Below, piece after piece: positions 7,825-27,689 of a stretch of DNA of 64,000 bases (the stretch's first letter is position 1; each line of letters opens with the position of its first letter). The notes under the pieces were generated by a model, which did no database searches, had not been told where the DNA came from, and was given only the letters and a program-made list of their open reading frames with translations. Both the position numbers and the translations under genes were made by a program. This stretch comes from a virus (lineage: Duplodnaviria; Caudoviricetes): IMG/VR virus record IMGVR_UViG_3300020046_004224; one strand, given 5' to 3'.

Positions 7825-8081
7825 TCCTTACTTTTATAGGATTATTATATTCTATTCTTTTTGCTGCCTGTTATGTTCCGCAAATAATCCAATTGTATAA
7901 AACGCATGAAACACGCGGTATTTCTATATCCCTGTATTGGATGTGCTTTGCCGCCTATATCTTAGCTATTATCTATACGATTTTTAATGTTGGCATTGAC
8001 AAAGTACTTCTCTTGAACTATGGTTCGGGTGGAATCCTTTGTACAATAACGCTATACCTGTACTACAAATTCAAATCTTAA
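7821..8081 (+). CDS. PQ-loop (SemiSWEET-like) membrane protein
   Basis: YVPQIIQLYKTHETRGISI PQ loop, three hydrophobic helices. Confidence 0.75.
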   Translation: MILTFIGLLYSILFAACYVPQIIQLYKTHETRGISISLYWMCFAAYILAIIYTIFNVGIDKVLLLNYGSGGILCTITLYLYYKFKS

Positions 8082-8088
8082 AATTCAC

Positions 8089-9530: not shown

Positions 9531-11222
9531 ATGTTCACTGCAAAACAAACACAATTATTCACAGTTCCAGTTAAAGCAACAGCTAAGGCGAAAACATCCA
9601 CGGGTGTTACCCCTATCTTTGTTCATGCTGCACAAAAGCACACTGTCAAAACTCTATCGGGTAATGGTGCGGTTAAACTAAGTTCAACTCTCGACAATTT
9701 TGTTGATGCATTCGGAAAACTTGGAACCTATAAGGCTCCTCGTCCTTTTGCTGAAATTGAGAAAGATGCAGAACTTCTTTGGGGAACTGATCCATTAACT
9801 TCTGTGAAGTTTATTCACTACCTTCGTACGATTACTCGTAAGACACAACTCTTTGATGGTTCTGTCACCGATGAACCACAAAAAGGTGGTGAACTCAAGT
9901 ATGAACCAATCATGCGTATGATTTGGCTTTCCCAGAAAGCACCAGAAGTGTTCTGGAAAAATATCGGATTGTTCGTATCCCTTGGATCATGGCACGATAT
10001 TTTCACAATGTTGCAATATGATCTTGTCTATAATGGATGGGATAACCGTAAACTTGATTGGAAGAAATTTGGTGATCTAATCCTCACTGCATTGGAAAAC
10101 GAAAAGACTAATAATCTTGTTAAGAAGTATCTTCCACAAATCAAGTCTCGTTCCGACTGTAAAACCGTCGAAGCACAGGCAAATTGTATGATTGGAAAGT
10201 GGATTTGTTCACTCCTTTTTGGACCAAAGGACAATTCTTTCAATTATAAACAATACCGCAAGCTCAAAACTTCTGGTACTGCACATGATTGGCAGCAGTT
10301 GATTTCTCAACGTCAATTCGATAAGATCGATTTTGATAAAATTCATGGTCGTGCATTGAACCTTTTGGTTCGTAGCAAGTTCTTGAAGAATCAGAATCTT
10401 TCTGACAAGTATGCAAAATGGGTGGGTGATCCAAAGACTGCTGTTAAATACACTGGATTTGTTCATGAGTTGTTTGGTAAACTTCCTTCTAGTCTTTCTA
10501 GCTTGGAGAAGCATACCCAGGACACTATCAACAAGCAGTTTGCTACATTGGTGGAGAAGGGGTCGAGTGAGAATAAAGAAGAACAGTGTAATTTTATAGT
10601 TACGAGAGATACCAGCCCGTCGATGTCCTCGCTTGCAACTGGAACAGATATGTCATGTTTCAATATCGCAAAGGCGCTTGCACTCTATTTCTCAGAATTC
10701 CTCACAGGAAGGTTCTCAAATTCTTGGATTGAGTTTAATTCGACCGCAAAAATAAATCAGTGGATCGGAAATTCGCCCCTTGAAAAATGGTATAACGATC
10801 ATTCTCGTTATGTAGGAGGCACCAACTTCCAGAGTGTTATTGATCTATTCGTAACTCTTAAAAATGAAGGAATTGACGAGTCTGAGTTTCCCACTGGAAT
10901 TCTTCTTATTAGTGATTCCGAATTTAATCCGACACAGTTAAACAATACCAATGTAGAAGAGGCTCGCCGAAAACTTCGCACAGTTTTTAGTAACGAGTTC
11001 TCTGAAAAATTCCAAATCGTTCTCTGGAATCTCCAGAACAACTATTATGGAAAAGGTTCAGGCGAGAAGTTTGAAACTACTGCAAATGAAAAAGGTTGCT
11101 ATTACTTCTCAGGGTATAGTGCATCTGTGATCAGTTTCATCACTGGTCACGAAGTTCAGACTGCCCGCCAGTTGTTTGATACAGCGATGGATCAAGAAAT
11201 CATCAATATGGTAACACTGTAA
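9531..11222 (+). CDS. Ro60/TROVE-like helical-repeat plus vWA protein (DUF2828-type)
   Basis: SGNGA N-terminus, LGSWHDI, KKYLP, C-terminal vWA MIDAS DTSPSM, GGTNFQSV, ISDSEF, VLWNL, SGYS. Confidence 0.8.
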   Translation: MFTAKQTQLFTVPVKATAKAKTSTGVTPIFVHAAQKHTVKTLSGNGAVKLSSTLDNFVDAFGKLGTYKAPRPFAEIEKDAELLWGTDPLTSVKFIHYLRTITRKTQLFDGSVTDEPQKGGELKYEPIMRMIWLSQKAPEVFWKNIGLFVSLGSWHDIFTMLQYDLVYNGWDNRKLDWKKFGDLILTALENEKTNNLVKKYLPQIKSRSDCKTVEAQANCMIGKWICSLLFGPKDNSFNYKQYRKLKTSGTAHDWQQLISQRQFDKIDFDKIHGRALNLLVRSKFLKNQNLSDKYAKWVGDPKTAVKYTGFVHELFGKLPSSLSSLEKHTQDTINKQFATLVEKGSSENKEEQCNFIVTRDTSPSMSSLATGTDMSCFNIAKALALYFSEFLTGRFSNSWIEFNSTAKINQWIGNSPLEKWYNDHSRYVGGTNFQSVIDLFVTLKNEGIDESEFPTGILLISDSEFNPTQLNNTNVEEARRKLRTVFSNEFSEKFQIVLWNLQNNYYGKGSGEKFETTANEKGCYYFSGYSASVISFITGHEVQTARQLFDTAMDQEIINMVTL

Positions 11223-11228
11223 AAAATA

Positions 11229-11261
11229 TAAAACCCGTGAAGAACCTCTTCACGGGTTTTA
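11229..11261 (+). terminator. intrinsic terminator
   Basis: AAAACCCGTGAAGA-acc-TCTTCACGGGTTTT. Confidence 0.8.
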
Positions 11262-11511
11262 TTGTTCTCCGAATTATGAAATATACAAAAAGAAACCTAC
11301 ATAAGTTAATCGGTCTTTCCGTTAAGGATGCGAGAGAACAAATAAAAAAATGGTTTAATATGCCTTGTACAGTTAGAGGGTACAATCTGATTTACCCTGC
11401 TATTGCGGTGGAAGGTGTTATTCTATTCGTGGATGATGATAAGGTTCAAAATGAAGATGCACCAGTGGTTTTAGCAGGAGCAGGCGACCCCGCAAGATTA
11501 CAATAACATAT

Positions 11512-11736
11512 ATGAAAGTATCATTCGACGGTCTTAGACGACATATTGCAGAAGATTTCAATGCGCTGATAGGCGAGTTGCATTATCAAAATCCTGAACT
11601 TAAACAGGAAACCAATTGTGACAAACTTATCACAAATTTACGAGGCTCATTAGGAGCACTTATGGCTTGTTACGATTCAAACGAAGAAGATGATTTTAAT
11701 GATTTGAGTGAAGAAATTAAACTTTTAAAGCTTTAG
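11512..11736 (+). CDS. hypothetical protein
   Basis: 74-aa ORF. Confidence 0.55.
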   Translation: MKVSFDGLRRHIAEDFNALIGELHYQNPELKQETNCDKLITNLRGSLGALMACYDSNEEDDFNDLSEEIKLLKL

Positions 11737-11748
11737 CCCAAAATCCTC

Positions 11749-11777
11749 TTGACTCTTCCGATAAATGATGGTAATGT
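11749..11777 (+). promoter_or_regulatory. sigma70 promoter for the first ncRNA sub-array
   Basis: TTGACT-17nt-TAATGT with extended TG; predicted start at about 11784, the first RNA unit. Confidence 0.7.
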
Positions 11778-11785
11778 AAAGGACA

Positions 11786-11850
11786 AGATTTCGCATACAG
11801 CAACTCAATAAACATGATCTCTTAAATCAAACGTTAAAAACCGAAATCTG
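11786..11850 (+). ncRNA. ACAGCAA RNA unit 1 (Y-RNA-like; Lys anticodon-loop cargo)
   Basis: stem AGATTTCG/CGAAATCT, ACAGCAA, internal TGAT-CTCTTAA-ATCA hairpin. Confidence 0.7.
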
Positions 11851-11853
11851 ATA

Positions 11854-11971
11854 GAGTGTCCCAACAGCAAAAACAAAAAACTTTTTTTCTATTCAAAAAA
11901 CCCATCCAAGTTCGAATCTTGGAATCGTTGGCCGGATGATTGGTTGAGGGCAAAACGGCGACTGACACTCG
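11854..11971 (+). ncRNA. ACAGCAA RNA unit 2 (permuted tRNA-like)
   Basis: stem GAGTGTC/GACACTC, ACAGCAA, T arm CCAAG-TTCGAAT-CTTGG followed by a closed acceptor-like stem. Confidence 0.75.
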
Positions 11972-12099
11972 AAACAATTTTAGACGTTAGATATACTCTA
12001 TATTAGCTAATCCTTAAAGAAACATATTGGGAGTTTCAAAATACTGACGAAATAATCAGAAATATTAGAGTAGGGGTGACAAAACGGAAATCCCCAATA

Positions 12100-12228
12100 A
12101 GAATATCAACAGCATAATTAAATTATAACCCAATTCTCGGTCGGAGGTTCGAATCCTTCCAAGTATCTCAGTAGAGACTTGTAGCTCAGTGGTAGAGCAA
12201 GAACTAATAAAACCAAAATGATGTTCTG
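12100..12228 (+). ncRNA. ACAGCA RNA unit 3 (YrlA-like permuted tRNA mimic)
   Basis: stem AGAATATCA/TGATGTTCT; T arm GGAGG-TTCGAAT-CCTTC, loop-closed acceptor, then D arm TA-GCTC-AGTGGTA-GAGC. Confidence 0.85.
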
Positions 12229-12239
12229 AATAATTAAAC

Positions 12240-12404
12240 GCTCTTGTGTCTAATAACGTAGCCGTTACGTAAAATGTACAATGCATGGTATATGCAAAAC
12301 GGACACTCTGAAAGGCCGAAACAGAAATCTAGAAATATGTTACGGATAAAGGGGTTGTATATGAAAAGGATGGTAAGCTAGCTCGAACCTAGCCAAGGGC
12401 ACCA
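12240..12404 (+). ncRNA. oversized tRNA-like RNA (165 nt, CCA end)
   Basis: acceptor GCTCTTG/CAAGGGC-ACCA, T-like arm GCTAG-CTCGAAC-CTAGC, expanded interior. Confidence 0.65.
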
Positions 12405-12416
12405 ATTTTAAAAGTA

Positions 12417-12767
12417 ATGAAACCGAAGATTATAGGATACGAAAAAGATGGTAAATTCTATGGGGTTGCCACACATTTAAGAGGAGTCTATATTAGCAGC
12501 GGCGATATTAATATCTATTATGGTAATGATGTCAGACTTCTAAAAGATTTCGAATCCGCTAAACTTTTAGTTCAAGGTAAGGTTTATAGAGAAGGAACAT
12601 ATTTAAAACTGACTGAAAAAGAATTAGGATCATTTGGACGAGGCCGATTGTTTATATCAACTATTAAAAATGCTAAAGAATTCGAGATTACAAATAAATA
12701 TCCTAGTGATTCTACCGGAACAGTTGCACTGAGAGCATCATTTAAATTGACAAAGGATAGTAAGTAG
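12417..12767 (+). CDS. hypothetical protein inside the ncRNA array
   Basis: 116-aa ORF. Confidence 0.6.
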   Translation: MKPKIIGYEKDGKFYGVATHLRGVYISSGDINIYYGNDVRLLKDFESAKLLVQGKVYREGTYLKLTEKELGSFGRGRLFISTIKNAKEFEITNKYPSDSTGTVALRASFKLTKDSK

Positions 12768-12775
12768 TGTAAAGT
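12747..12775 (+). promoter_or_regulatory. sigma70 promoter for the second ncRNA sub-array
   Basis: TTGACA-17nt-TAAAGT directly before unit 4. Confidence 0.7.
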
Positions 12776-12782
12776 AAAGATA

Positions 12783-12840
12783 GAAGGACAGACAGCAAAT
12801 TAACACTTTTTATATGGTTTAAAAAACAAAGTGTCCTTCG
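12783..12840 (+). ncRNA. ACAGCAA RNA unit 4
   Basis: stem GAAGGACA/TGTCCTTC, ACAGCAA, small AU hairpin cargo. Confidence 0.7.
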
Positions 12841-12844
12841 GATA

Positions 12845-12966
12845 AGGTTCAAATCAGCAATACAATACAAAAACTCTTATTACGAACAAGCCGATCCAGT
12901 GCAATCCTGGTAATTGTGTAAGTCATCTACAAGTCCTAGTGGACAGGAAAAAGATACATGAACCTG
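12845..12966 (+). ncRNA. TCAGCAA RNA unit 5 (degenerate permuted tRNA-like)
   Basis: stem AGGTTCA/TGAACCT; CCAG-TGCAATC-CTGG T-like arm then TCCT-AGTGGAC-AGGA D-like arm. Confidence 0.7.
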
Positions 12967-12969
12967 AAA

Positions 12970-13029
12970 AAAACATTAACAGCAAAACCCAAAGGTTATC
13001 GAAGTTCAATTCTTCAAAATAATGTTTTG
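12970..13029 (+). ncRNA. ACAGCAA RNA unit 6 (mini tRNA-elbow cargo)
   Basis: stem AAAACATTA/TAATGTTTT; AACC/GGTT hairpin plus GAAG-TTCAATT-CTTC T arm. Confidence 0.65.
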
Positions 13030-13033
13030 TACA

Positions 13034-13169
13034 AAGTCATCAACCGCAATTATAACTTCTAAAGCAAAATCGCCGCCGAAAGGCTTTCGGGTTCAAGTCC
13101 CGACATAACCTTAACTGGCTGTGGTGAAATTGGTAAACACGGCGAAAAAGAAAACAAAATGGTGACTTG
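13034..13169 (+). ncRNA. ACCGCAA RNA unit 7 (permuted tRNA-Leu-like)
   Basis: stem AAGTCATCA/TGGTGACTT; TCGCC/GGCGA, V arm GCC-GAAA-GGC, T arm TCGGG-TTCAAGT-CCCGA, D arm GTG-AAATTGGTAAA-CAC. Confidence 0.85.
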
Positions 13170-13173
13170 AATA

Positions 13174-13353
13174 AAAATTCTAACAGCATATTAAATAATA
13201 AATAACGGCTCTAAGGTACTATAAGTCGGGAAACTGATCCAGGATGGTCTAATAAATGCTCGCTAAATCGAAAGACATGTGAGAAAGACGGGACAAAGGA
13301 TGGTAATCGAAAGACCCATAATCTGTAAGCCACATAAAAAAGATAGAATTTTG
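13174..13353 (+). ncRNA. ACAGCA RNA unit 8 (large multi-hairpin cargo)
   Basis: stem AAAATTCTA/TAGAATTTT, ACAGCAT, GGCT...AGCC domain with GAAA tetraloops. Confidence 0.65.
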
Positions 13354-13419
13354 AAAATATAAAATTACGTTTCACGGGATTGTCTGCCTTTGTTTTGTGT
13401 TTATATTTCATATTTGTTG

Positions 13420-13458
13420 AAAAAACCCCATAGGAGCGATTCTATGGGGTTTTTATTT
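13420..13458 (+). terminator. intrinsic terminator closing the ncRNA array
   Basis: AAAAACCCCATAGGA-gcga-TTCTATGGGGTTTTT. Confidence 0.8.
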
Positions 13459-13494
13459 GTATTGACTGTATAACAAACATTACTAAATAGCAGT

Positions 13495-13665
13495 ATGGTT
13501 ACTTCTCTTATTACTCTTTTAATTCTTGCCCTTGTTTTATGGCTTATTTATTTCGTTGTTGGGAAGTTTATCTCTGATACACCTCTTCAAATTATTGGAA
13601 TTATTTTAGGTCTTGTATTCCTTGTTAAGGCATTGGCGGCATTTGGAATATCCACAGGCTTATAA
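13495..13665 (+). CDS. small two-TM membrane protein (56 aa)
   Basis: manual translation MVTSLITLLILALVLWLIYFVVGKFISDTPLQIIGIILGLVFLVKALAAFGISTGL; below the ORF-track cutoff. Confidence 0.7.
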   Translation: MVTSLITLLILALVLWLIYFVVGKFISDTPLQIIGIILGLVFLVKALAAFGISTGL

Positions 13666-13675
13666 ATATATAATA

Positions 13676-14104
13676 ATGAAATTTGATCAATTCGTATCTT
13701 CCATAATAGAGAACCACAGAACTGTAAAGTATAGTGCATTAGTTCTCGATGATCAATCTCGTAATAAACTTCTAAATAATAAAGAGGTTATGAATAATGT
13801 GACGGATGAGCATGAAGTTATATGTCACCATATGACCATTAAAATGGGTGGACTGGTTGGAACGCCTCATGAATCACGGATCGGTGATAAAGAGGATATT
13901 ATTGCCACTCATGTCGGAAAGACTGACGATGACAATGTTATTGCTGTAAAAGTGAACGGAAGGAGTGACAACAGAACTCCACATGTGACAATTGCAGTAA
14001 ATCGTCAAAAAGGAGGAAAACCCGTTCATAGTAATACTATATCTGATTGGATATTGTTGAATAAATCAATACAACTTTCGGGCACAGTTGAAGAAATTTT
14101 TTAA
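13676..14104 (+). CDS. 2H phosphoesterase (cyclic phosphodiesterase/RNA-repair-like)
   Basis: two HxT motifs (HHMT, PHVT); TATAAATA at 13661 upstream of ATG 13676. Confidence 0.75.
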   Translation: MKFDQFVSSIIENHRTVKYSALVLDDQSRNKLLNNKEVMNNVTDEHEVICHHMTIKMGGLVGTPHESRIGDKEDIIATHVGKTDDDNVIAVKVNGRSDNRTPHVTIAVNRQKGGKPVHSNTISDWILLNKSIQLSGTVEEIF

Positions 14105-20868: not shown

Positions 20869-21762
20869 ATGCTCTACAACACACGCATTGCCCCATCGCC
20901 AACAGGATTCATTCATCTTGGTAACATCCGCACGGCATACCATAACTGGCTTGCTGCACGATCAACCGGGGGGAGGTTTGTTCTACGTATTGATGATACT
21001 GATAAAGCTCGTAGTGAAGAACAGTATGTTGATAAAATCTATGAAACTTTCCAATGGCTAGGACTTGATTATGATTCCACATTTCGCCAAAGCTCACGTT
21101 TAGATTTCTATAAAAATCTTGCACATAGGTTGATCAAAGCAGGACTTGCCGAAGAAATCGAAGGTGGTGCAATCCGATTGATTGTTAACTATAAAATTCC
21201 AGAATCTTGGACAGATATTATTGCGGGCAATGTCACCACATCTGCAAAAGATTTAGATGTTTTGAACAATATCATCATCATTCGCAGTGATCAAAATCCT
21301 ACATACAACTTTGCAAGCATTGTCGATGATATGACAACAGAGGTGAATTTGATCATTCGTGGAACTGATCATATCTCAAATACCATCAAACAGCTTGCAA
21401 TCATCGAAGCATTTAAACAATTAGAACATCCTGCGATTGGTATCTTATTTGATCGAGAAGTAAAATTTGCGCATGTCGGATTGGTATTTGAAAAGGGTAA
21501 GAAACTGTCAAAGCGTGACGGCTCAAGCAACTTCGATACACATAGAGATAACGGCACTGATCCTGATGCTATTCTTAACTGGATTCTTCGACTTGGTTGG
21601 AGTCCGTCTGATGCGAATTTCGATGCAAAAGAACCGATTATTACCAAAGACCGTGCCAAGGAAATTTTCTGGACTGATGGCTCTATGAGGAATTCATCCG
21701 CTAGTCTGGATATGAATAAACTGAATTTTTACAACAAAAAATACAAAAACCTAAAGAAATAA
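20869..21762 (+). CDS. glutamyl-tRNA synthetase catalytic domain only (GluRS/GluQRS-like)
   Basis: TRIAPSPTG, HLGN, LRIDDTD, RGTDH, KLSKR; no anticodon-binding domain. Confidence 0.88.
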   Translation: MLYNTRIAPSPTGFIHLGNIRTAYHNWLAARSTGGRFVLRIDDTDKARSEEQYVDKIYETFQWLGLDYDSTFRQSSRLDFYKNLAHRLIKAGLAEEIEGGAIRLIVNYKIPESWTDIIAGNVTTSAKDLDVLNNIIIIRSDQNPTYNFASIVDDMTTEVNLIIRGTDHISNTIKQLAIIEAFKQLEHPAIGILFDREVKFAHVGLVFEKGKKLSKRDGSSNFDTHRDNGTDPDAILNWILRLGWSPSDANFDAKEPIITKDRAKEIFWTDGSMRNSSASLDMNKLNFYNKKYKNLKK

Positions 21763-25054: not shown

Positions 25055-25495
25055 TTATGGAAACACTCCTACAGTATCTATACGTAAATTAAGTACTGTT
25101 GATGGGGGATTGGCAAATATCAATTTGATCGAGGCTCCTATAGAAGGCAAATCCATACTAGCATCTTCCAACACGACTGAATCGGCTGGAATGCTTGTGC
25201 TCTGTTCAATATAACACTGTGCGCCCATAAAACTCGGAGCAGTACTATGTACATAAATAATCTCATTCGAGACAATATTAAATGTAATTTGTTTTGTGGA
25301 AGATTCGTCTATGTCAAACGAAACCGAACCAATAAGCGTTCCACTTGATCGGTAAAAGTTTACTACATGAGCACTAAACAAATCATTACACAGTAATCGA
25401 TTTTTAACATTTACTACTAGAGAGTTGCCGCTATTAGAAAAAATCCCAAAGGACTTGCCTATAACTATTCGCTTCCGGCGTAATAAATTTATCAT
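25055..25495 (-). CDS. hypothetical protein
   Basis: 146-aa ORF downstream of 25514-25888. Confidence 0.5.
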   Translation of the reverse strand: MINLLRRKRIVIGKSFGIFSNSGNSLVVNVKNRLLCNDLFSAHVVNFYRSSGTLIGSVSFDIDESSTKQITFNIVSNEIIYVHSTAPSFMGAQCYIEQSTSIPADSVVLEDASMDLPSIGASIKLIFANPPSTVLNLRIDTVGVFP

Positions 25496-25513
25496 TTAAT
25501 TACAATTCGTTTA

Positions 25514-25888
25514 TTAGAAATTGATCAAATCTTCTGGTAAGAATTTCTTATATTGGAATGCAATGCCTGTTCCGGCACTAACTGTGATACTCGTTAATGG
25601 TGCCATCCATGTATATCCGGCGGGGAATGAAAAGTTGTTATATGCAGATGGTGTTACGGTATAAATCGTTCCAGTATGGCTGCTATCAGTATGGGTTGTT
25701 CTAAATCCGGCACTGGTGATAACTGATGCCGTTAAAAATTCAATTGCATAAAAAACGTGATCTGTGGCTGGAGTATATGTTCCCGATCCTGTTAGAGGCA
25801 TTTGTCCGTGACCCCCAAAAGAGAGTTCCCATGCAAACAACTCTCTGCGATCATTATACATAAAACTAGTACTTGGTTGTAAATTCAT
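25514..25888 (-). CDS. hypothetical (possibly virion) protein
   Basis: 124-aa T/S/G-rich ORF with a TAAGTA promoter motif. Confidence 0.6.
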   Translation of the reverse strand: MNLQPSTSFMYNDRRELFAWELSFGGHGQMPLTGSGTYTPATDHVFYAIEFLTASVITSAGFRTTHTDSSHTGTIYTVTPSAYNNFSFPAGYTWMAPLTSITVSAGTGIAFQYKKFLPEDLINF

Positions 25889-25925: not shown

Positions 25926-26432
25926 ATGAAATTTATCGAATTGTATAATCTGTTGACCGATTCATATTCAGATGAAACACCAAAAGTTTCTATATCGGAC
26001 CTAATTATACGAGGTCAGAAACTTGACGGAAAATCGATAAAGATAGAGTTTTCGAACGGGGCATACACTAATGGAGTTATACGGAAGTGGTTCAATCCCA
26101 AAACATTCGAAGAAAAAGATTACAGTATAGGAATTGTTTCATGGGGCGCAACCCCTATGTCATCTATTATGGATAGAGGTCTTATTGCTCAAAAGGACTA
26201 TAAGGGGCGTGGATTTGCTTCCAAATGTTTTAACGAATTACTCAAGATAGCCAAACAAAATAATATAGATATCTTTACTATTTTTGCTCCCTCGGACGAT
26301 AGCCAAGCTGTTATGAAGAATTATACAGATAAAAATGTATTAATCCCCATAGAAAGCAGTAAAGCTGCATATGGAGATTTTTACACCGAATTTCGTATAA
26401 ACTGGTCGGAGGCTAATAAAAGATTAAACTAA
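25926..26432 (+). CDS. GNAT-family acetyltransferase
   Basis: DYKGRGFASK acetyl-CoA binding motif. Confidence 0.65.
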   Translation: MKFIELYNLLTDSYSDETPKVSISDLIIRGQKLDGKSIKIEFSNGAYTNGVIRKWFNPKTFEEKDYSIGIVSWGATPMSSIMDRGLIAQKDYKGRGFASKCFNELLKIAKQNNIDIFTIFAPSDDSQAVMKNYTDKNVLIPIESSKAAYGDFYTEFRINWSEANKRLN

Positions 26433-27689
26433 CTTTGTAATTGGAAGTTCTTTATTTCCAACTGACATAGGTCTTCCTGGGGCGGAGCTTTCTAAAGGTG
26501 TCATCCACGGTTTAGCCGGATCAATCCCAAGGAAATGGCCCACTGTGGCATTAAACATACCAGGAGTTACATGATCCTCTTCGACCCGTTCTCCGTTAGG
26601 AGTAGTCTTACCAATGGCATATCCACCGAGATTTAAACCACCAAGAAGCATAGAAAATGCTTGCGCATGGTGATCTTTTCCCATATTAATATTTATTTTA
26701 GGAGTTCTTCCGAAATCTGTTGCAACAACAATCAATGTATCTTTTAAGAGTCCTTCGTTCTTCAAATCACCGAATAGTGAAGACAATGCTTTATCTAAAT
26801 CACCACCACGTTGTGTCATGTTGGTTTCGATGTCAGTATGCATGTCAAATCCGCCATAGGTTACTTCACAATAACGAACACCACTCTTTATCAATCTTTT
26901 TGCAAGCAACAGACCACTACCGATTTGGGTTCTTCCATAAGTGTCTCTTGCCTCTGGAGTTTCTTTATTCAAATCAAACACATTCAAATCGTCGCTTTTC
27001 AATAGTTTCAATGCTTCATCATATATTGAAGAATATGCACTCACATCAGATGTGTTAAAATTCTTTATGAAGTTATTATTCAGTGTATTTAGCACATTGT
27101 TTCGGCTATTAAATTCTGTTTCTGATCCTAATATTTTACTATATCTTAGACCCTCATTTGGATTAAGAATTGAAAGTGGATAGTACTTCTTATTAAAATA
27201 TCCACCACCAGGATTATCTGTATCAGGGGATATAGAAACATAATCAGGAATAGAGGGATGGAGTTTGCCCAACATACTGTATGATATTGATCCCATAGTT
27301 GGATGAATTATCAAACTACTCTTATTGTAAGAGGTTTTGATTGTATATTTCGACATTGCATGGGCACCAGATTTGGATACCATGCTTCTTACTGGAATAA
27401 ATTTGTCTCCGTGCTTTGCAAGGTTTGGATAATAACTTGAAATCAAGAAATCTCCAGTTGTTTTTATTGCCGTTGCATTTCCTCTTATTTCTACATCTTC
27501 TTTCGGGTCTAAAAAGTCAGTATGAGATATTCCTCCATCGAGATAGATGTATATGACATGCTTTGCTTTTCCAAAAGTTCCATTCCCGTTAGTTGATGCA
27601 AATAGATTATTAGGAAGCATACTAACTCCTAATGTTCCGAGTGCCAACTTTTCAATAAATGATCTACGTGATTCTGTATTGTTTTCCAT
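26424..27689 (-). CDS. DUF1501 family protein with Tat signal
   Basis: MENNTESRRSFI Tat leader; IYIYLDGGISH.D.LDPK, YGGFDMH, TDFGRTP, GKDHH. Confidence 0.88.
   Translation of the reverse strand: MENNTESRRSFIEKLALGTLGVSMLPNNLFASTNGNGTFGKAKHVIYIYLDGGISHTDFLDPKEDVEIRGNATAIKTTGDFLISSYYPNLAKHGDKFIPVRSMVSKSGAHAMSKYTIKTSYNKSSLIIHPTMGSISYSMLGKLHPSIPDYVSISPDTDNPGGGYFNKKYYPLSILNPNEGLRYSKILGSETEFNSRNNVLNTLNNNFIKNFNTSDVSAYSSIYDEALKLLKSDDLNVFDLNKETPEARDTYGRTQIGSGLLLAKRLIKSGVRYCEVTYGGFDMHTDIETNMTQRGGDLDKALSSLFGDLKNEGLLKDTLIVVATDFGRTPKININMGKDHHAQAFSMLLGGLNLGGYAIGKTTPNGERVEEDHVTPGMFNATVGHFLGIDPAKPWMTPLESSAPGRPMSVGNKELPITKLV

What the first reader, a model, noticed from the sequence alone, without database searches (positions are those of the whole stretch)
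11854..13169. Circularly permuted tRNA mimics as cargo, including a class II (Leu-like) version
In units 3 and 7 (clear) and units 2 and 5 (degenerate), the T arm comes before the D arm and the acceptor stem is closed by a loop. The anticodon stem opens into the carrier stem, so there is no CCA end and no anticodon at the normal position. Unit 3 has GGAGG-TTCGAAT-CCTTC then GCTC-AGTGGTA-GAGC. Unit 7 adds a GCC-GAAA-GGC variable arm and a Leu-type D arm. Unit 6 carries only a small hairpin plus a T arm. This topology matches the known YrlA tRNA-mimic class, but several differently derived copies in one locus is unusual. They could titrate proteins that read the tRNA elbow.
Basis: partly seen in the sequence, partly recalled or inferred. 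Interest (0 to 1): 0.85.

Follow-up and report, generated by a model that had tools for sequence, protein, structure and literature searches.

The report
Phage tRNA-mimic RNAs beside Ro60-like gene
A large phage carries, next to a gene for a Ro60-shaped RNA-binding ring protein, a row of small RNA genes of which two clearly (and one partly) contain an inside-out tRNA look-alike; this is a widespread and apparently uncatalogued cousin of the known bacterial Y-RNA (YrlA) tRNA mimics.

Summary
It holds in part for unit 2 and is not supported for unit 5.

Units 3 (12100-12227) and 7 (13034-13168) have a T arm, then a closed acceptor-like hairpin, then a D arm. All of this sits inside a terminal "handle": a 7-9 bp stem followed by ACAGCAA.

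- **Detection.** Rfam YrlA hits unit 3 at 32 bits, below its cut-off. A model built from 40 related units detects unit 7, which was not in the training set, at 58 bits.
- **Linkage.** In 83 related phage loci the model finds 103 such modules, all on the strand of the neighbouring gene. That gene folds like Ro60 (TROVE ring plus vWA).
- **tRNA core.** The modules keep it: U8, A14, G18G19 and the T loop are conserved, and the 15-48 Levitt pair covaries.
- **Re-permutation.** After rotation at the acceptor loop, ARAGORN of 103 as tRNAs. Controls gave none.
- **Class II.** Unit 7 belongs to a recurrent class II subtype with a Leu-like D arm and a covarying variable arm.

These are not YrlA members. 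The YrlA Ro-binding motif is absent and the Rfam threshold is missed. They are a new variant of the Ro60/Y-RNA kind.

The likely role is as adaptor or decoy RNAs of the Ro-like protein. That role is inferred, not shown. This scan has met the same RNA family before on other DNA.

The parts
9531..11222 (+). Gene for a Ro60-like protein (563 aa; Pfam DUF7788 with a weak DUF2828 hit), the presumed protein partner of the RNAs
   Evidence: Pfam. PHROG 850 'RNA-binding protein', 8e-32. AF2 model with pLDDT 81.5. The top full-length Foldseek matches are Ro60/TROVE structures 9kop, 2i91, 9l5y, 1yvp and 2nvo. The MIDAS-type D360-x-S362-x-S364 is conserved.
11786..11849 (+). Unit 1: handle RNA with a small non-tRNA cargo (context)
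   Evidence: 8-bp terminal stem plus ACAGCAA. Weak Rfam Dicty_Class_I_RNA hit, 23.9 bits.
11854..11970 (+). Unit 2: degenerate tRNA mimic. T arm at 11906-11922, a short hairpin, and a D-loop remnant near 11940-11953 without a D stem.
   Evidence: R1 47.1 bits, as a training member. Its ortholog L009:8442-8554 keeps the same layout. ARAGORN does not call it after rotation.
12100..12227 (+). Unit 3: class I permuted tRNA mimic. T arm at 12143-12159, closed acceptor-like hairpin at 12160-12181, U8 A9, D arm at 12184-12198, 4-bp anticodon-stem analog, G15-C48.
   Evidence: Rfam YrlA 32.4 bits. R1 79.5 bits. ARAGORN calls it an intron-bearing tRNA only after rotation.
12783..12839 (+). Unit 4: handle RNA without tRNA parts (context)
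   Evidence: R1 matches the handle only, 27.4 bits. A promoter-like site at 12747-12775 places a start at its first base.
12845..12965 (+). Unit 5: handle variant (UCAGCAA) with three conserved hairpins; not shown to be tRNA-like
   Evidence: R1 10.7 bits, E 8. Compensatory changes against L009 keep the hairpins, but the 'D arm' is a UAGU tetraloop hairpin.
12970..13028 (+). Unit 6: handle RNA with a small hairpin and a lone T arm (13001-13015)
   Evidence: Units with only a T arm recur in the family.
13034..13168 (+). Unit 7: class II (Leu-like) permuted tRNA mimic with handle variant ACCGCAA. Anticodon-stem analog 13070-13073 with 13142-13145, variable arm 13075-13084, T arm 13087-13103, weak acceptor-like region 13104-13121, U8 G9, D arm 13124-13140, A15-U48.
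   Evidence: R1 57.9 bits, not in the training set. D half nearest to tRNA-Leu. Member of the class II subtype. Weak acceptor stem. Not called by ARAGORN after rotation.
13174..13352 (+). Unit 8: handle RNA with a large non-tRNA cargo (context)
   Evidence: 9-bp terminal stem plus ACAGCA.
13421..13454 (+). Intrinsic terminator ending the array
   Evidence: 15-bp stem plus T run.

Best explanation
Units 3 and 7, and in decayed form unit 2, are circularly permuted tRNA-like modules. Each runs anticodon-stem analog, (variable arm), T arm, loop-closed acceptor-like stem, U8, D arm. Each is carried inside a small RNA whose two ends pair into a 7-9 bp stem followed by ACAGCAA.

They belong to a large family of handle RNAs encoded next to a divergent Ro60-like ring protein (DUF2828/DUF7788) in many phages.

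**Proposed mechanism, by analogy with Ro60/Y RNA particles.** The handle docks the RNA on the Ro-like protein encoded at 9531-11222. The tRNA-shaped module folds into an L with an intact elbow and presents it to proteins that recognise tRNA shape. Those proteins are thereby tethered to, or kept away by, the particle. Different modules (class I, class II, T arm only, non-tRNA) would address different partners.

**Shown here:** the structures, their conservation and covariation, their linkage to the gene, and the Ro60-like fold.

**Inferred:** expression, binding of the handle by the protein, and what the tRNA-like part recruits.
For: **Structure in the window.**
- Folds and motifs.
- Rfam YrlA hit on unit 3, E 1.7e-4.
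- Unit 7 detected at 57.9 bits without being in the training set.

**Family.**
- R1 gives 103 hits at E<=1e-3 in 83 loci, all on the strand of the Ro-like gene. 81 lie downstream at a median distance of 750 nt. 57 loci have at least one hit and 34 have two or three.
- ACAGCA with a closing stem occurs 353 times on the gene strand and 67 times on the other strand.
- Covariation on the 103-sequence model-fitted alignment: 96% of cells are paired against 62% in shuffles, and 524 double changes against 153.

**tRNA core, in 81 modules.**
- U8 in 77, A14 in 79, GG in 78, G53-C61 in 81, and U54 U55 C56 R57 A58 nearly invariant.
- The 15-48 pair is G-C in 37 and A-U in 32, Fisher 6e-17. No secondary-structure model imposes this.
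- Acceptor-like stems are mostly 6-9 bp.

**Re-permutation.** ARAGORN of 103 after rotation at the acceptor loop. It of 103 unrotated, 0 of 515 shuffled and 0 at wrong rotations.

**Class II subtype.** Variable-arm and anticodon-stem analogs covary.

**Protein.**
- Ro60/TROVE structures are the best full-length fold matches.
- Only this gene, not its neighbours, travels with the RNAs.

**Cultured relatives with the same pairing.**
- Mycobacterium phage Douge: 68.9 bits, directly after its annotated 'Ro-like RNA binding protein'.
- Leptolyngbya phage Lbo-JY46, Listeria phage P100 and the Felix O1-like phage SP116.

**Literature.**
- YrlA tRNA mimicry and binding to Rsr (PMC4201824).
- Phage Ro60 binds phage Y-like RNAs and host PNPase (PMC12135203).
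Against: - There is no expression or processing data for this phage.
- No binding data exist for this protein family with these RNAs.
- A terminator-like hairpin (11228-11262) and two small ORFs separate the Ro-like gene from the array. They are therefore linked but probably not one transcript.
- The YrlA model scores far below its threshold and the YrlA Ro-binding motif is absent. Docking through ACAGCAA is an analogy only.
- Unit 7's acceptor-like stem is weak, and ARAGORN does not call units 7 or 2 after rotation.
- Part of the covariation counts rests on units picked, or aligned, by criteria that reward pairing.
Confidence: 0.62

Rival explanations
1. Decoys against host immunity aimed at tRNA. 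The modules imitate particular tRNA classes in order to soak up host nucleases or sensors that recognise tRNA shape. The Ro-like protein would serve only to stabilise them or hold them in place. This is a rival about function and overlaps with the best explanation.
For: - Modules of different tRNA types coexist in one locus.
- In many relatives the arrays sit inside phage tRNA gene clusters.
- A Ro60-like protein of the Felix O1-type phage Bas63 (gp130) was reported to counter the Ppl defence system, and its authors suspected Y RNAs among the adjacent tRNA genes (PMC11482910). Felix O1-type phages carry a distant homolog of the window's protein next to handle units.
Against: - The modules have no anticodon loop, which is the target of the best known anticodon nucleases.
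- Ppl is described as a DNA-directed candidate, not a tRNA nuclease (PMC11482910).
- Many units carry no tRNA parts at all.
- Nothing here shows any interaction.
Confidence: 0.17
2. Substrates for tRNA-processing enzymes. RNase P and RNase Z would cut in the acceptor-like loop and CCA would be added. This would give a two-piece RNA with a real acceptor end, as seen for M. smegmatis YrlA. The tRNA shape would then serve maturation, or even charging, rather than tethering.
For: - Acceptor-like stems of 6-9 bp with loops of 14-24 nt are common in the family.
- M. smegmatis YrlA, which has a 7-bp stem, is cut by RNase P and receives CCA in vivo (PMC4201824).
Against: - Unit 3 and several relatives close the stem with a 4-nt loop. 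Unit 7 lacks a proper stem.
- No encoded CCA follows the 3' strand in the examples read.
- S. Typhimurium YrlA and D. radiodurans Yrn1 are not cleaved (PMC4201824).
Confidence: 0.08
3. Decayed tRNA gene remnants, or artefacts of neighbouring tRNA halves (T arm of one gene, D arm of the next), with no function of their own.
For: - Dimeric tRNAs do give weak hits to such models. R1 scores 14-28 bits on the real tRNA clusters of the window.
- Unit 2 has lost its D stem, and unit 5 is not tRNA-like.
Against: - ARAGORN and Rfam find no linear tRNA in 11786-13352.
- The modules are enclosed by a handle shared with non-tRNA units.
- The modules are conserved, with compensatory and tertiary covariation, across 57 loci.
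Confidence: 0.05
4. True circularly permuted tRNA genes that mature into decoding tRNAs, as in the red alga Cyanidioschyzon merolae.
For: - The 3' half precedes the 5' half.
- After rotation, ARAGORN accepts many as tRNAs with an 'intron' at the anticodon position.
Against: - The 4-5 bp anticodon-stem analog runs into the conserved handle instead of a 7-nt loop. The 'anticodons' that ARAGORN assigns are arbitrary.
- The same handle carries non-tRNA cargos.
- Short tetraloops close some acceptor stems.
- No splicing-type junction motif was seen.
Confidence: 0.02

Closest known systems
YrlA, the tRNA-like bacterial and mycobacteriophage Y RNA bound by Ro60/Rsr (Rfam RF02553; Chen et al. 2014, PMC4201824; structure preprint 10.1101/312249)
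   Same: - Encoded beside a Ro60-fold protein.
- The 5' and 3' ends pair into a stem.
- Inside lies a T arm, then a loop-closed acceptor-like stem, then a D arm, with an optional variable arm.
- tRNA tertiary nucleotides are kept, including a covarying 15-48 pair.
- Sister RNAs carry only a T arm, like YrlB.
   Different: - The GNCGAAN0-1G motif is absent in all 103 modules. A terminal stem plus ACAGCAA takes its place.
- Rfam scores are 24-36 bits against a threshold of 69.
- The partner protein is the DUF2828/DUF7788 branch, with no Pfam TROVE hit.
- The arrays hold up to about 10 units with 4-nt GAUA spacers.
- Several modules of different tRNA classes occur per locus.
Phage Ro60 with Y-like RNAs Yrl1 and Yrl2 of Thermus phage phiLo (PMC12135203; PDB 9kop, 9l5y)
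   Same: - A phage-encoded Ro60-fold protein with small RNAs encoded beside it.
- 9kop is the best structural match of the window's protein.
   Different: - The phiLo RNAs were picked by a CGAA motif and are described as stem-bulge-stem RNAs, not tRNA mimics.
- Sequence identity in the Foldseek structural alignments to the top Ro60/TROVE matches (9kop, 2i91, 9l5y) is about 10-15%.
- The handle motif is different.
Circularly permuted tRNA genes (Cyanidioschyzon merolae and some other algae; from my own knowledge)
   Same: The 3' half (T arm side) is encoded before the 5' half (D arm side).
   Different: Those genes mature into normal decoding tRNAs. Here there is no anticodon loop and the ends stay in a conserved handle.
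Dictyostelium Class I RNAs (Rfam RF01414; Kjellin et al. 2021, PMC7919456)
   Same: [quoted passage not shown]
- The interior is variable.
- The genes are clustered.
- The Rfam model hits simple handle units at 24-39 bits.
   Different: - No hit reaches the 41.5-bit threshold.
- No tRNA-like cargos are described in Dictyostelium.
- The only protein shown to bind is an RRM protein.
- Homology is untested.

Membership tests
YrlA (Rfam RF02553) | tRNA-like domain in the order T arm, closed acceptor-like stem-loop, D arm, with tRNA tertiary nucleotides | tested here: met
   Units 3 and 7. Family statistics, including 15-48 covariation. Rotation test.
YrlA (Rfam RF02553) | Score at or above the Rfam gathering threshold (69 bits) | tested here: not met
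   32.4 bits for unit 3. 24-36 bits in relatives. None at gathering threshold in 13 loci.
YrlA (Rfam RF02553) | GNCGAAN0-1G motif near the 5' end, the presumed Rsr-binding site (PMC4201824) | tested here: not met
   Absent from the 5' part of all 8 window units and of all 103 family modules. ACAGCA is present in 74 of 103.
YrlA (Rfam RF02553) | Encoded next to a Ro60 ortholog | tested here: met
   The array starts 564 nt after a gene whose model matches Ro60/TROVE structures over its full length. The linkage holds in 57 of 83 loci. Caveat: Pfam sees DUF7788/DUF2828, not TROVE.
YrlA (Rfam RF02553) | Bound by Ro60/Rsr; carries tRNA-type modifications | not testable with these tools
   Needs immunoprecipitation and modification mapping.
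Circularly permuted tRNA genes | 3' half encoded before the 5' half | tested here: met
Circularly permuted tRNA genes | Processing restores an anticodon arm with a 7-nt loop and gives a decoding tRNA | tested here: not met
   The anticodon-stem analog of 4-5 bp opens into the conserved handle, and no loop is possible. RNA data could not be obtained.
ACAGCAA-handle RNAs next to DUF2828-type Ro-like genes (uncatalogued; defined here and in earlier notes of this scan) | 7-9 bp terminal stem, ACAGCAA right after its 5' strand, an A-rich run before its 3' strand, same strand as the Ro-like gene and close to it | tested here: met
   Units 1-4, 6 and 8 fit exactly. Unit 5 has UCAGCAA and unit 7 has ACCGCAA. 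Strand bias 353 against 67. Adjacent units are 4 nt apart in 77 cases, with GAUA in 54 of them.
Dictyostelium Class I RNA (Rfam RF01414) | Score at or above the gathering threshold (41.5 bits) | tested here: not met
   23.9 bits for unit 1. The best score in relatives is 39.3 bits. None at gathering threshold.
Ro60/TROVE proteins (for the neighbouring gene) | Ring of helical repeats plus a vWA domain with a MIDAS motif | tested here: met
   Foldseek top hits cover 540-600 aligned columns of Ro60 structures. D360-x-S-x-S364 is conserved in 21 homologs.
Ro60/TROVE proteins (for the neighbouring gene) | Match to the Pfam TROVE domain | tested here: not met
   Only DUF7788 (2e-11) and a weak DUF2828 hit at E<=0.01.

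The most novel reading that the evidence does not exclude
The array is a set of identity-specific tRNA look-alikes (class I, class II Leu-like, Glu-like and others across the family) loaded on a second, undescribed kind of Ro particle. The phage uses this particle to capture or redirect particular host proteins that read tRNA shape, as a counter to immunity or RNA damage. The ACAGCAA handle would be the same recognition element as in the unexplained Class I RNAs of Dictyostelium, which would then be the partner RNAs of the eukaryotic DUF2828 proteins.
Probability: 0.12. Interest if true: 0.85.

Novelty: new variant of a known kind. Interest (0 to 1): 0.62.

Why it matters
Ro60/Y RNA particles are conserved from bacteria to humans, yet the job of the tRNA-like part of bacterial Y RNAs is still unknown.

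This family offers more than a hundred natural variants. They share one handle and one partner gene but carry interchangeable cargos. The cargos include class I and class II tRNA shapes, lone T arms and non-tRNA folds.

The family also occurs in cultured phages, including Mycobacterium phage Douge, Listeria phage P100, Felix O1-type phages and Leptolyngbya phage Lbo-JY46. The question "what does the tRNA mimic recruit?" therefore becomes testable by pull-down and deletion.

It may also give the RNA partners for a Ro60-like phage protein reported to defeat a bacterial defence system (PMC11482910). I did not check Bas63 gp130 directly; Felix O1-type relatives carry a distant homolog.

Finally, these units are easy to miss or to misannotate in phage genomes.

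Tried and rejected
- **Whole genome and sequencing runs.** There is therefore no expression, end or processing evidence.
- **DNA search of cultured phages.** A blastn search with the locus found nothing. Only the protein search reached cultured phages.
- **PDB sequence search with the protein.** Only chance-level hits. The Ro60 link needed a fold comparison.
- **Rfam at gathering thresholds.** Neither YrlA nor Dicty_Class_I_RNA reaches threshold in the window or in 13 loci.
- **Neighbouring genes as system parts.** I tested the 469-aa ORF, the small ORFs, the gene at 13676-14104 and the RNR genes. None travels with the Ro-like gene, so I dropped them.
- **Published transcriptomics of Listeria phage CKA15 as expression evidence.** The three handle units lie at 25,282-25,565 of that genome. 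The most transcribed region reported is 26,236-26,727 (PMC12282133). They do not coincide. The coordinates of the other two regions were not found in the text I read.
- **Isotype typing of the T halves.** Not informative.
- **The Avesson 2011 paper.** It reports the proteins bound to Dictyostelium Class I RNA but is not held. Whether one of them is a DUF2828 protein could not be checked.
- **Unit 5 as a tRNA mimic.** Rejected.
- **Reading the units as linear tRNAs or tmRNA.** Rejected.
Full report
**What is in the sequence**

The stretch 11786-13352 on the + strand is a row of eight small units. It is interrupted by one conserved 116-aa ORF (12417-12767) and ends at a strong terminator (13421-13454).

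Each unit begins and ends with the two strands of a 7-9 bp stem. The 5' strand is followed at once by ACAGCA(A). In unit 5 this is UCAGCAA and in unit 7 ACCGCAA. The 3' strand is preceded by an A-rich run.

Unit 3 (12100-12227) contains:
- a T arm GGAGG-UUCGAAU-CCUUC (12143-12159);
- an 8-bp hairpin with a 2-nt bulge and a 4-nt loop (12160-12181);
- U8 and A9;
- a D arm GCUC-AGUGGUA-GAGC (12184-12198);
- A26;
- a 4-bp analog of the anticodon stem that opens into the handle.

Unit 7 (13034-13168) contains:
- a 4-bp anticodon-stem analog (13070-13073 with 13142-13145);
- a variable arm GCC-GAAA-GGC;
- a T arm (13087-13103);
- U8 and G9;
- a 3-bp D stem with an 11-nt loop (13124-13140);
- G26.

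**Is it more than chance?**

Rfam's YrlA model hits unit 3 end to end with E 1.7e-4, although at 32.4 bits it is far below the family threshold of 69.

I built a covariance model (R1) from 40 related units. It scores unit 3 at 79.5 bits and unit 2 at 47.1 bits, both of them training members. It scores unit 7, which it had never seen, at 57.9 bits with E 2e-8. Unit 5 scores only 10.7 bits with E 8.

A perfect T arm occurs in 67 of 336 handle units. Shuffles give 2.2 and the reverse complement gives 4.

**Relatives**

The gene just upstream (9531-11222, 563 aa) has more than 1700 homologs, mostly on large phage contigs. I fetched 83 distinct loci around homologs.

- In these loci ACAGCA with a closing stem is found 353 times on the gene's strand and 67 times on the other strand.
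- R1 finds 103 tRNA-module units at E<=1e-3, every one on the gene's strand. Of these, 81 lie downstream at a median of 750 nt.
- 57 loci have at least one hit and 34 have two or three.
- None of the other genes around the window's locus travels with it.
- Adjacent units are separated by exactly 4 nt in 77 cases, usually GAUA.

**Structure evidence**

On the 103-sequence alignment the terminal stem, T stem and D stem are paired in 96% of cells, against 62% in shuffles. There are 524 double-sided changes against 153.

These counts lean on units that were picked or aligned with pairing in mind. The more telling evidence is tertiary. In 81 modules:
- position 8 is U in 77;
- position 14 is A in 79;
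- the D loop holds GG in 78;
- G53-C61 and U54 U55 C56 R57 A58 are practically invariant;
- the Levitt pair 15-48 switches between G-C (37) and A-U (32) with few exceptions, Fisher 6e-17.

No secondary-structure model imposes that 15-48 correlation. It is the same argument that established tRNA mimicry for YrlA (PMC4201824).

The hairpin between the T and D arms is mostly 6-9 bp, the length of an acceptor stem.

I cut each module in the loop of the acceptor-like hairpin and rotated it. ARAGORN with introns allowed then of 103 as tRNAs whose 'intron' is the handle. It calls none of the 103 unrotated, none of 515 dinucleotide shuffles and none at three wrong rotation points.

Unit 3 is called. 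Units 7 and 2 are not. The anticodons it reports are meaningless, because there is no anticodon loop.

**Unit by unit**

- **Unit 3** is a complete class I mimic (G15-C48).
- **Unit 7** is a class II mimic (A15-U48).
  - Its D half is closest to tRNA-Leu among 335 tRNAs of these phages, scoring 36 against 28 for the next isotype.
  - The same subtype recurs in at least eight other hits of the strict pattern, and by eye in L009 and L070. It combines a Leu-type D arm, a variable-arm hairpin often capped by GAAA, and stems that change in a compensatory way (GCC/GGC, GAU/AUC, GGAU/AUCC, GAUC/GAUC). The anticodon-stem analog also covaries.
  - The window's copy has a weak acceptor-like stem. Its ortholog in the closest relative has a clean 7-bp one.
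- **Unit 2** keeps a canonical T arm and a short hairpin but only a remnant of the D loop.
- **Unit 5** is well conserved, and its hairpins are kept by compensatory changes. However, its 7-nt loop is UGCAAUC and its supposed D arm is a tetraloop hairpin. I do not count it as a tRNA mimic.
- **Unit 6** has a lone T arm, a cargo type that recurs in the family.

**The neighbouring protein**

Pfam sees only DUF7788 and, weakly, DUF2828. PHROGs calls the protein an RNA-binding protein.

An AlphaFold2 model (pLDDT 81.5, pTM 0.81) has Ro60/TROVE structures as its best full-length matches. They include Thermus phage phiLo Ro60, Xenopus and human Ro60 and Deinococcus Rsr. vWA domains follow these matches. 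A MIDAS-type D-x-S-x-S motif is conserved.

Distant homologs in cultured phages are annotated 'DUF2828' or 'Ro-like RNA binding protein'.

Handle units lie beside the gene in four cultured phages:
- Mycobacterium phage Douge, with a full tRNA-module unit at 68.9 bits;
- Leptolyngbya phage Lbo-JY46, with five units;
- Listeria phage P100, with three units;
- the Felix O1-like phage SP116.

**How it most likely works**

In known systems the paired ends of a Y RNA dock on Ro60. The rest of the RNA gates the protein or tethers it to another enzyme such as PNPase (PMC4201824, PMC12135203).

By analogy I propose two steps. The stem-plus-ACAGCAA handle docks on the Ro-like protein. The L-shaped module then presents an intact tRNA elbow to proteins that recognise tRNA shape.

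These steps are shown: structure, conservation, gene linkage and the Ro60-like fold. These steps are inferred: expression, docking, and the identity of whatever reads the elbow.

A decoy role against host immunity is a serious functional rival. A Felix O1-type Ro60-like protein counters the Ppl system, and its authors suspected Y RNAs among the adjacent tRNA genes (PMC11482910). Against a role as decoys for anticodon nucleases, the modules lack an anticodon loop.

Maturation by RNase P and CCA addition, as in M. smegmatis YrlA, is possible for family members with long acceptor loops. It is unlikely for unit 3, which has a 4-nt loop.

**Comparison with what is known**

The modules work like YrlA but fail two of its defining features. 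The GNCGAAN0-1G motif is absent from all 103 modules, and the Rfam threshold is missed. Their partner is a different branch of Ro-like proteins.

They are not permuted tRNA genes in the algal sense, since no anticodon arm can form.

I found no Rfam family for them. In the papers I could search I found no description of this handle or of its tRNA-like cargos. Two papers only speculate that Y RNAs may lie near such genes (PMC11482910, PMC12282133).

Earlier notes of this scan report the same RNA family on other DNA. I treat them as leads, not as evidence.

**Verdict**

This is a real, conserved feature and a new variant of the Ro60/Y-RNA kind. The functional reading remains open.

Noticed in passing
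window 11849-11854, 12839-12845, 12965-12970, 13028-13034, 13168-13174; all loci: Adjacent handle units are separated by exactly 4 nt in 77 of the close pairs across loci. The spacer is GAUA in 54 of them. In the window the spacers are 4-5 nt (GAUA, GGAUA, GAAA, GUACA, GAAUA). This may be a processing site or a short 3' tail.
   Followed up: partly
window 11787-11850; L004:8308-8364; L088:6734-6791: Rfam's Dictyostelium Class I RNA model (a short end-joining stem plus a motif containing ACAGCAA) hits the simple handle units at 23.9, 37.2 and 39.3 bits, just under its 41.5-bit threshold. Whether this reflects shared ancestry or convergence is open.
   Followed up: partly
L030:7989-8102: One handle unit carries a non-permuted tRNA body. 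Rfam tRNA scores 52.6 bits over model positions 6-65 at 8028-8088. The handle stands where the acceptor stem would be. This is a second way of mounting a tRNA shape on the same handle.
   Followed up: no
L049:7922-8281; L020, L047, L015: In several relatives the array is embedded in the phage tRNA gene cluster. In L049 it lies next to a phage tmRNA gene (72 bits).
   Followed up: no
window 12417-12767: A 116-aa ORF sits in the middle of the array and is kept at 79% identity in the closest relative (L009:9614-9958). It has no Pfam or PHROG match.
   Followed up: partly
window 11750-11778 and 12747-12775: Two promoter-like sites, TTGACT-N17-TAATGT and TTGACA-N17-TAAAGT, would each start transcription at about the first base of a unit (unit 1 and unit 4). 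A motif GAUGGUAA recurs four times in 11000-14000.
   Followed up: partly
window 12228-12416 and 11971-12099: Two stretches inside the array are neither handle units nor ORFs. They include a 13-bp hairpin at 12025-12099 and a T-arm-like GCUAG-CUCGAAC-CUAGC near 12378-12394. I did not analyse them.
   Followed up: no
window 20869-21762: A 297-aa protein with only the catalytic domain of class I Glu/Gln tRNA synthetases (Pfam tRNA-synt_1c, 3e-55), of the GluQ-RS-like kind.
   Followed up: no
L091:3652-3918 (Listeria phage P100); cka15 25,282-25,565: Three handle units lie 74-340 nt upstream of the DUF2828 gene gp165 in P100-like Listeria phages and are unannotated in all 54 records. The CKA15 protein homolog was reported in virions (PMC12282133).
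   Followed up: partly
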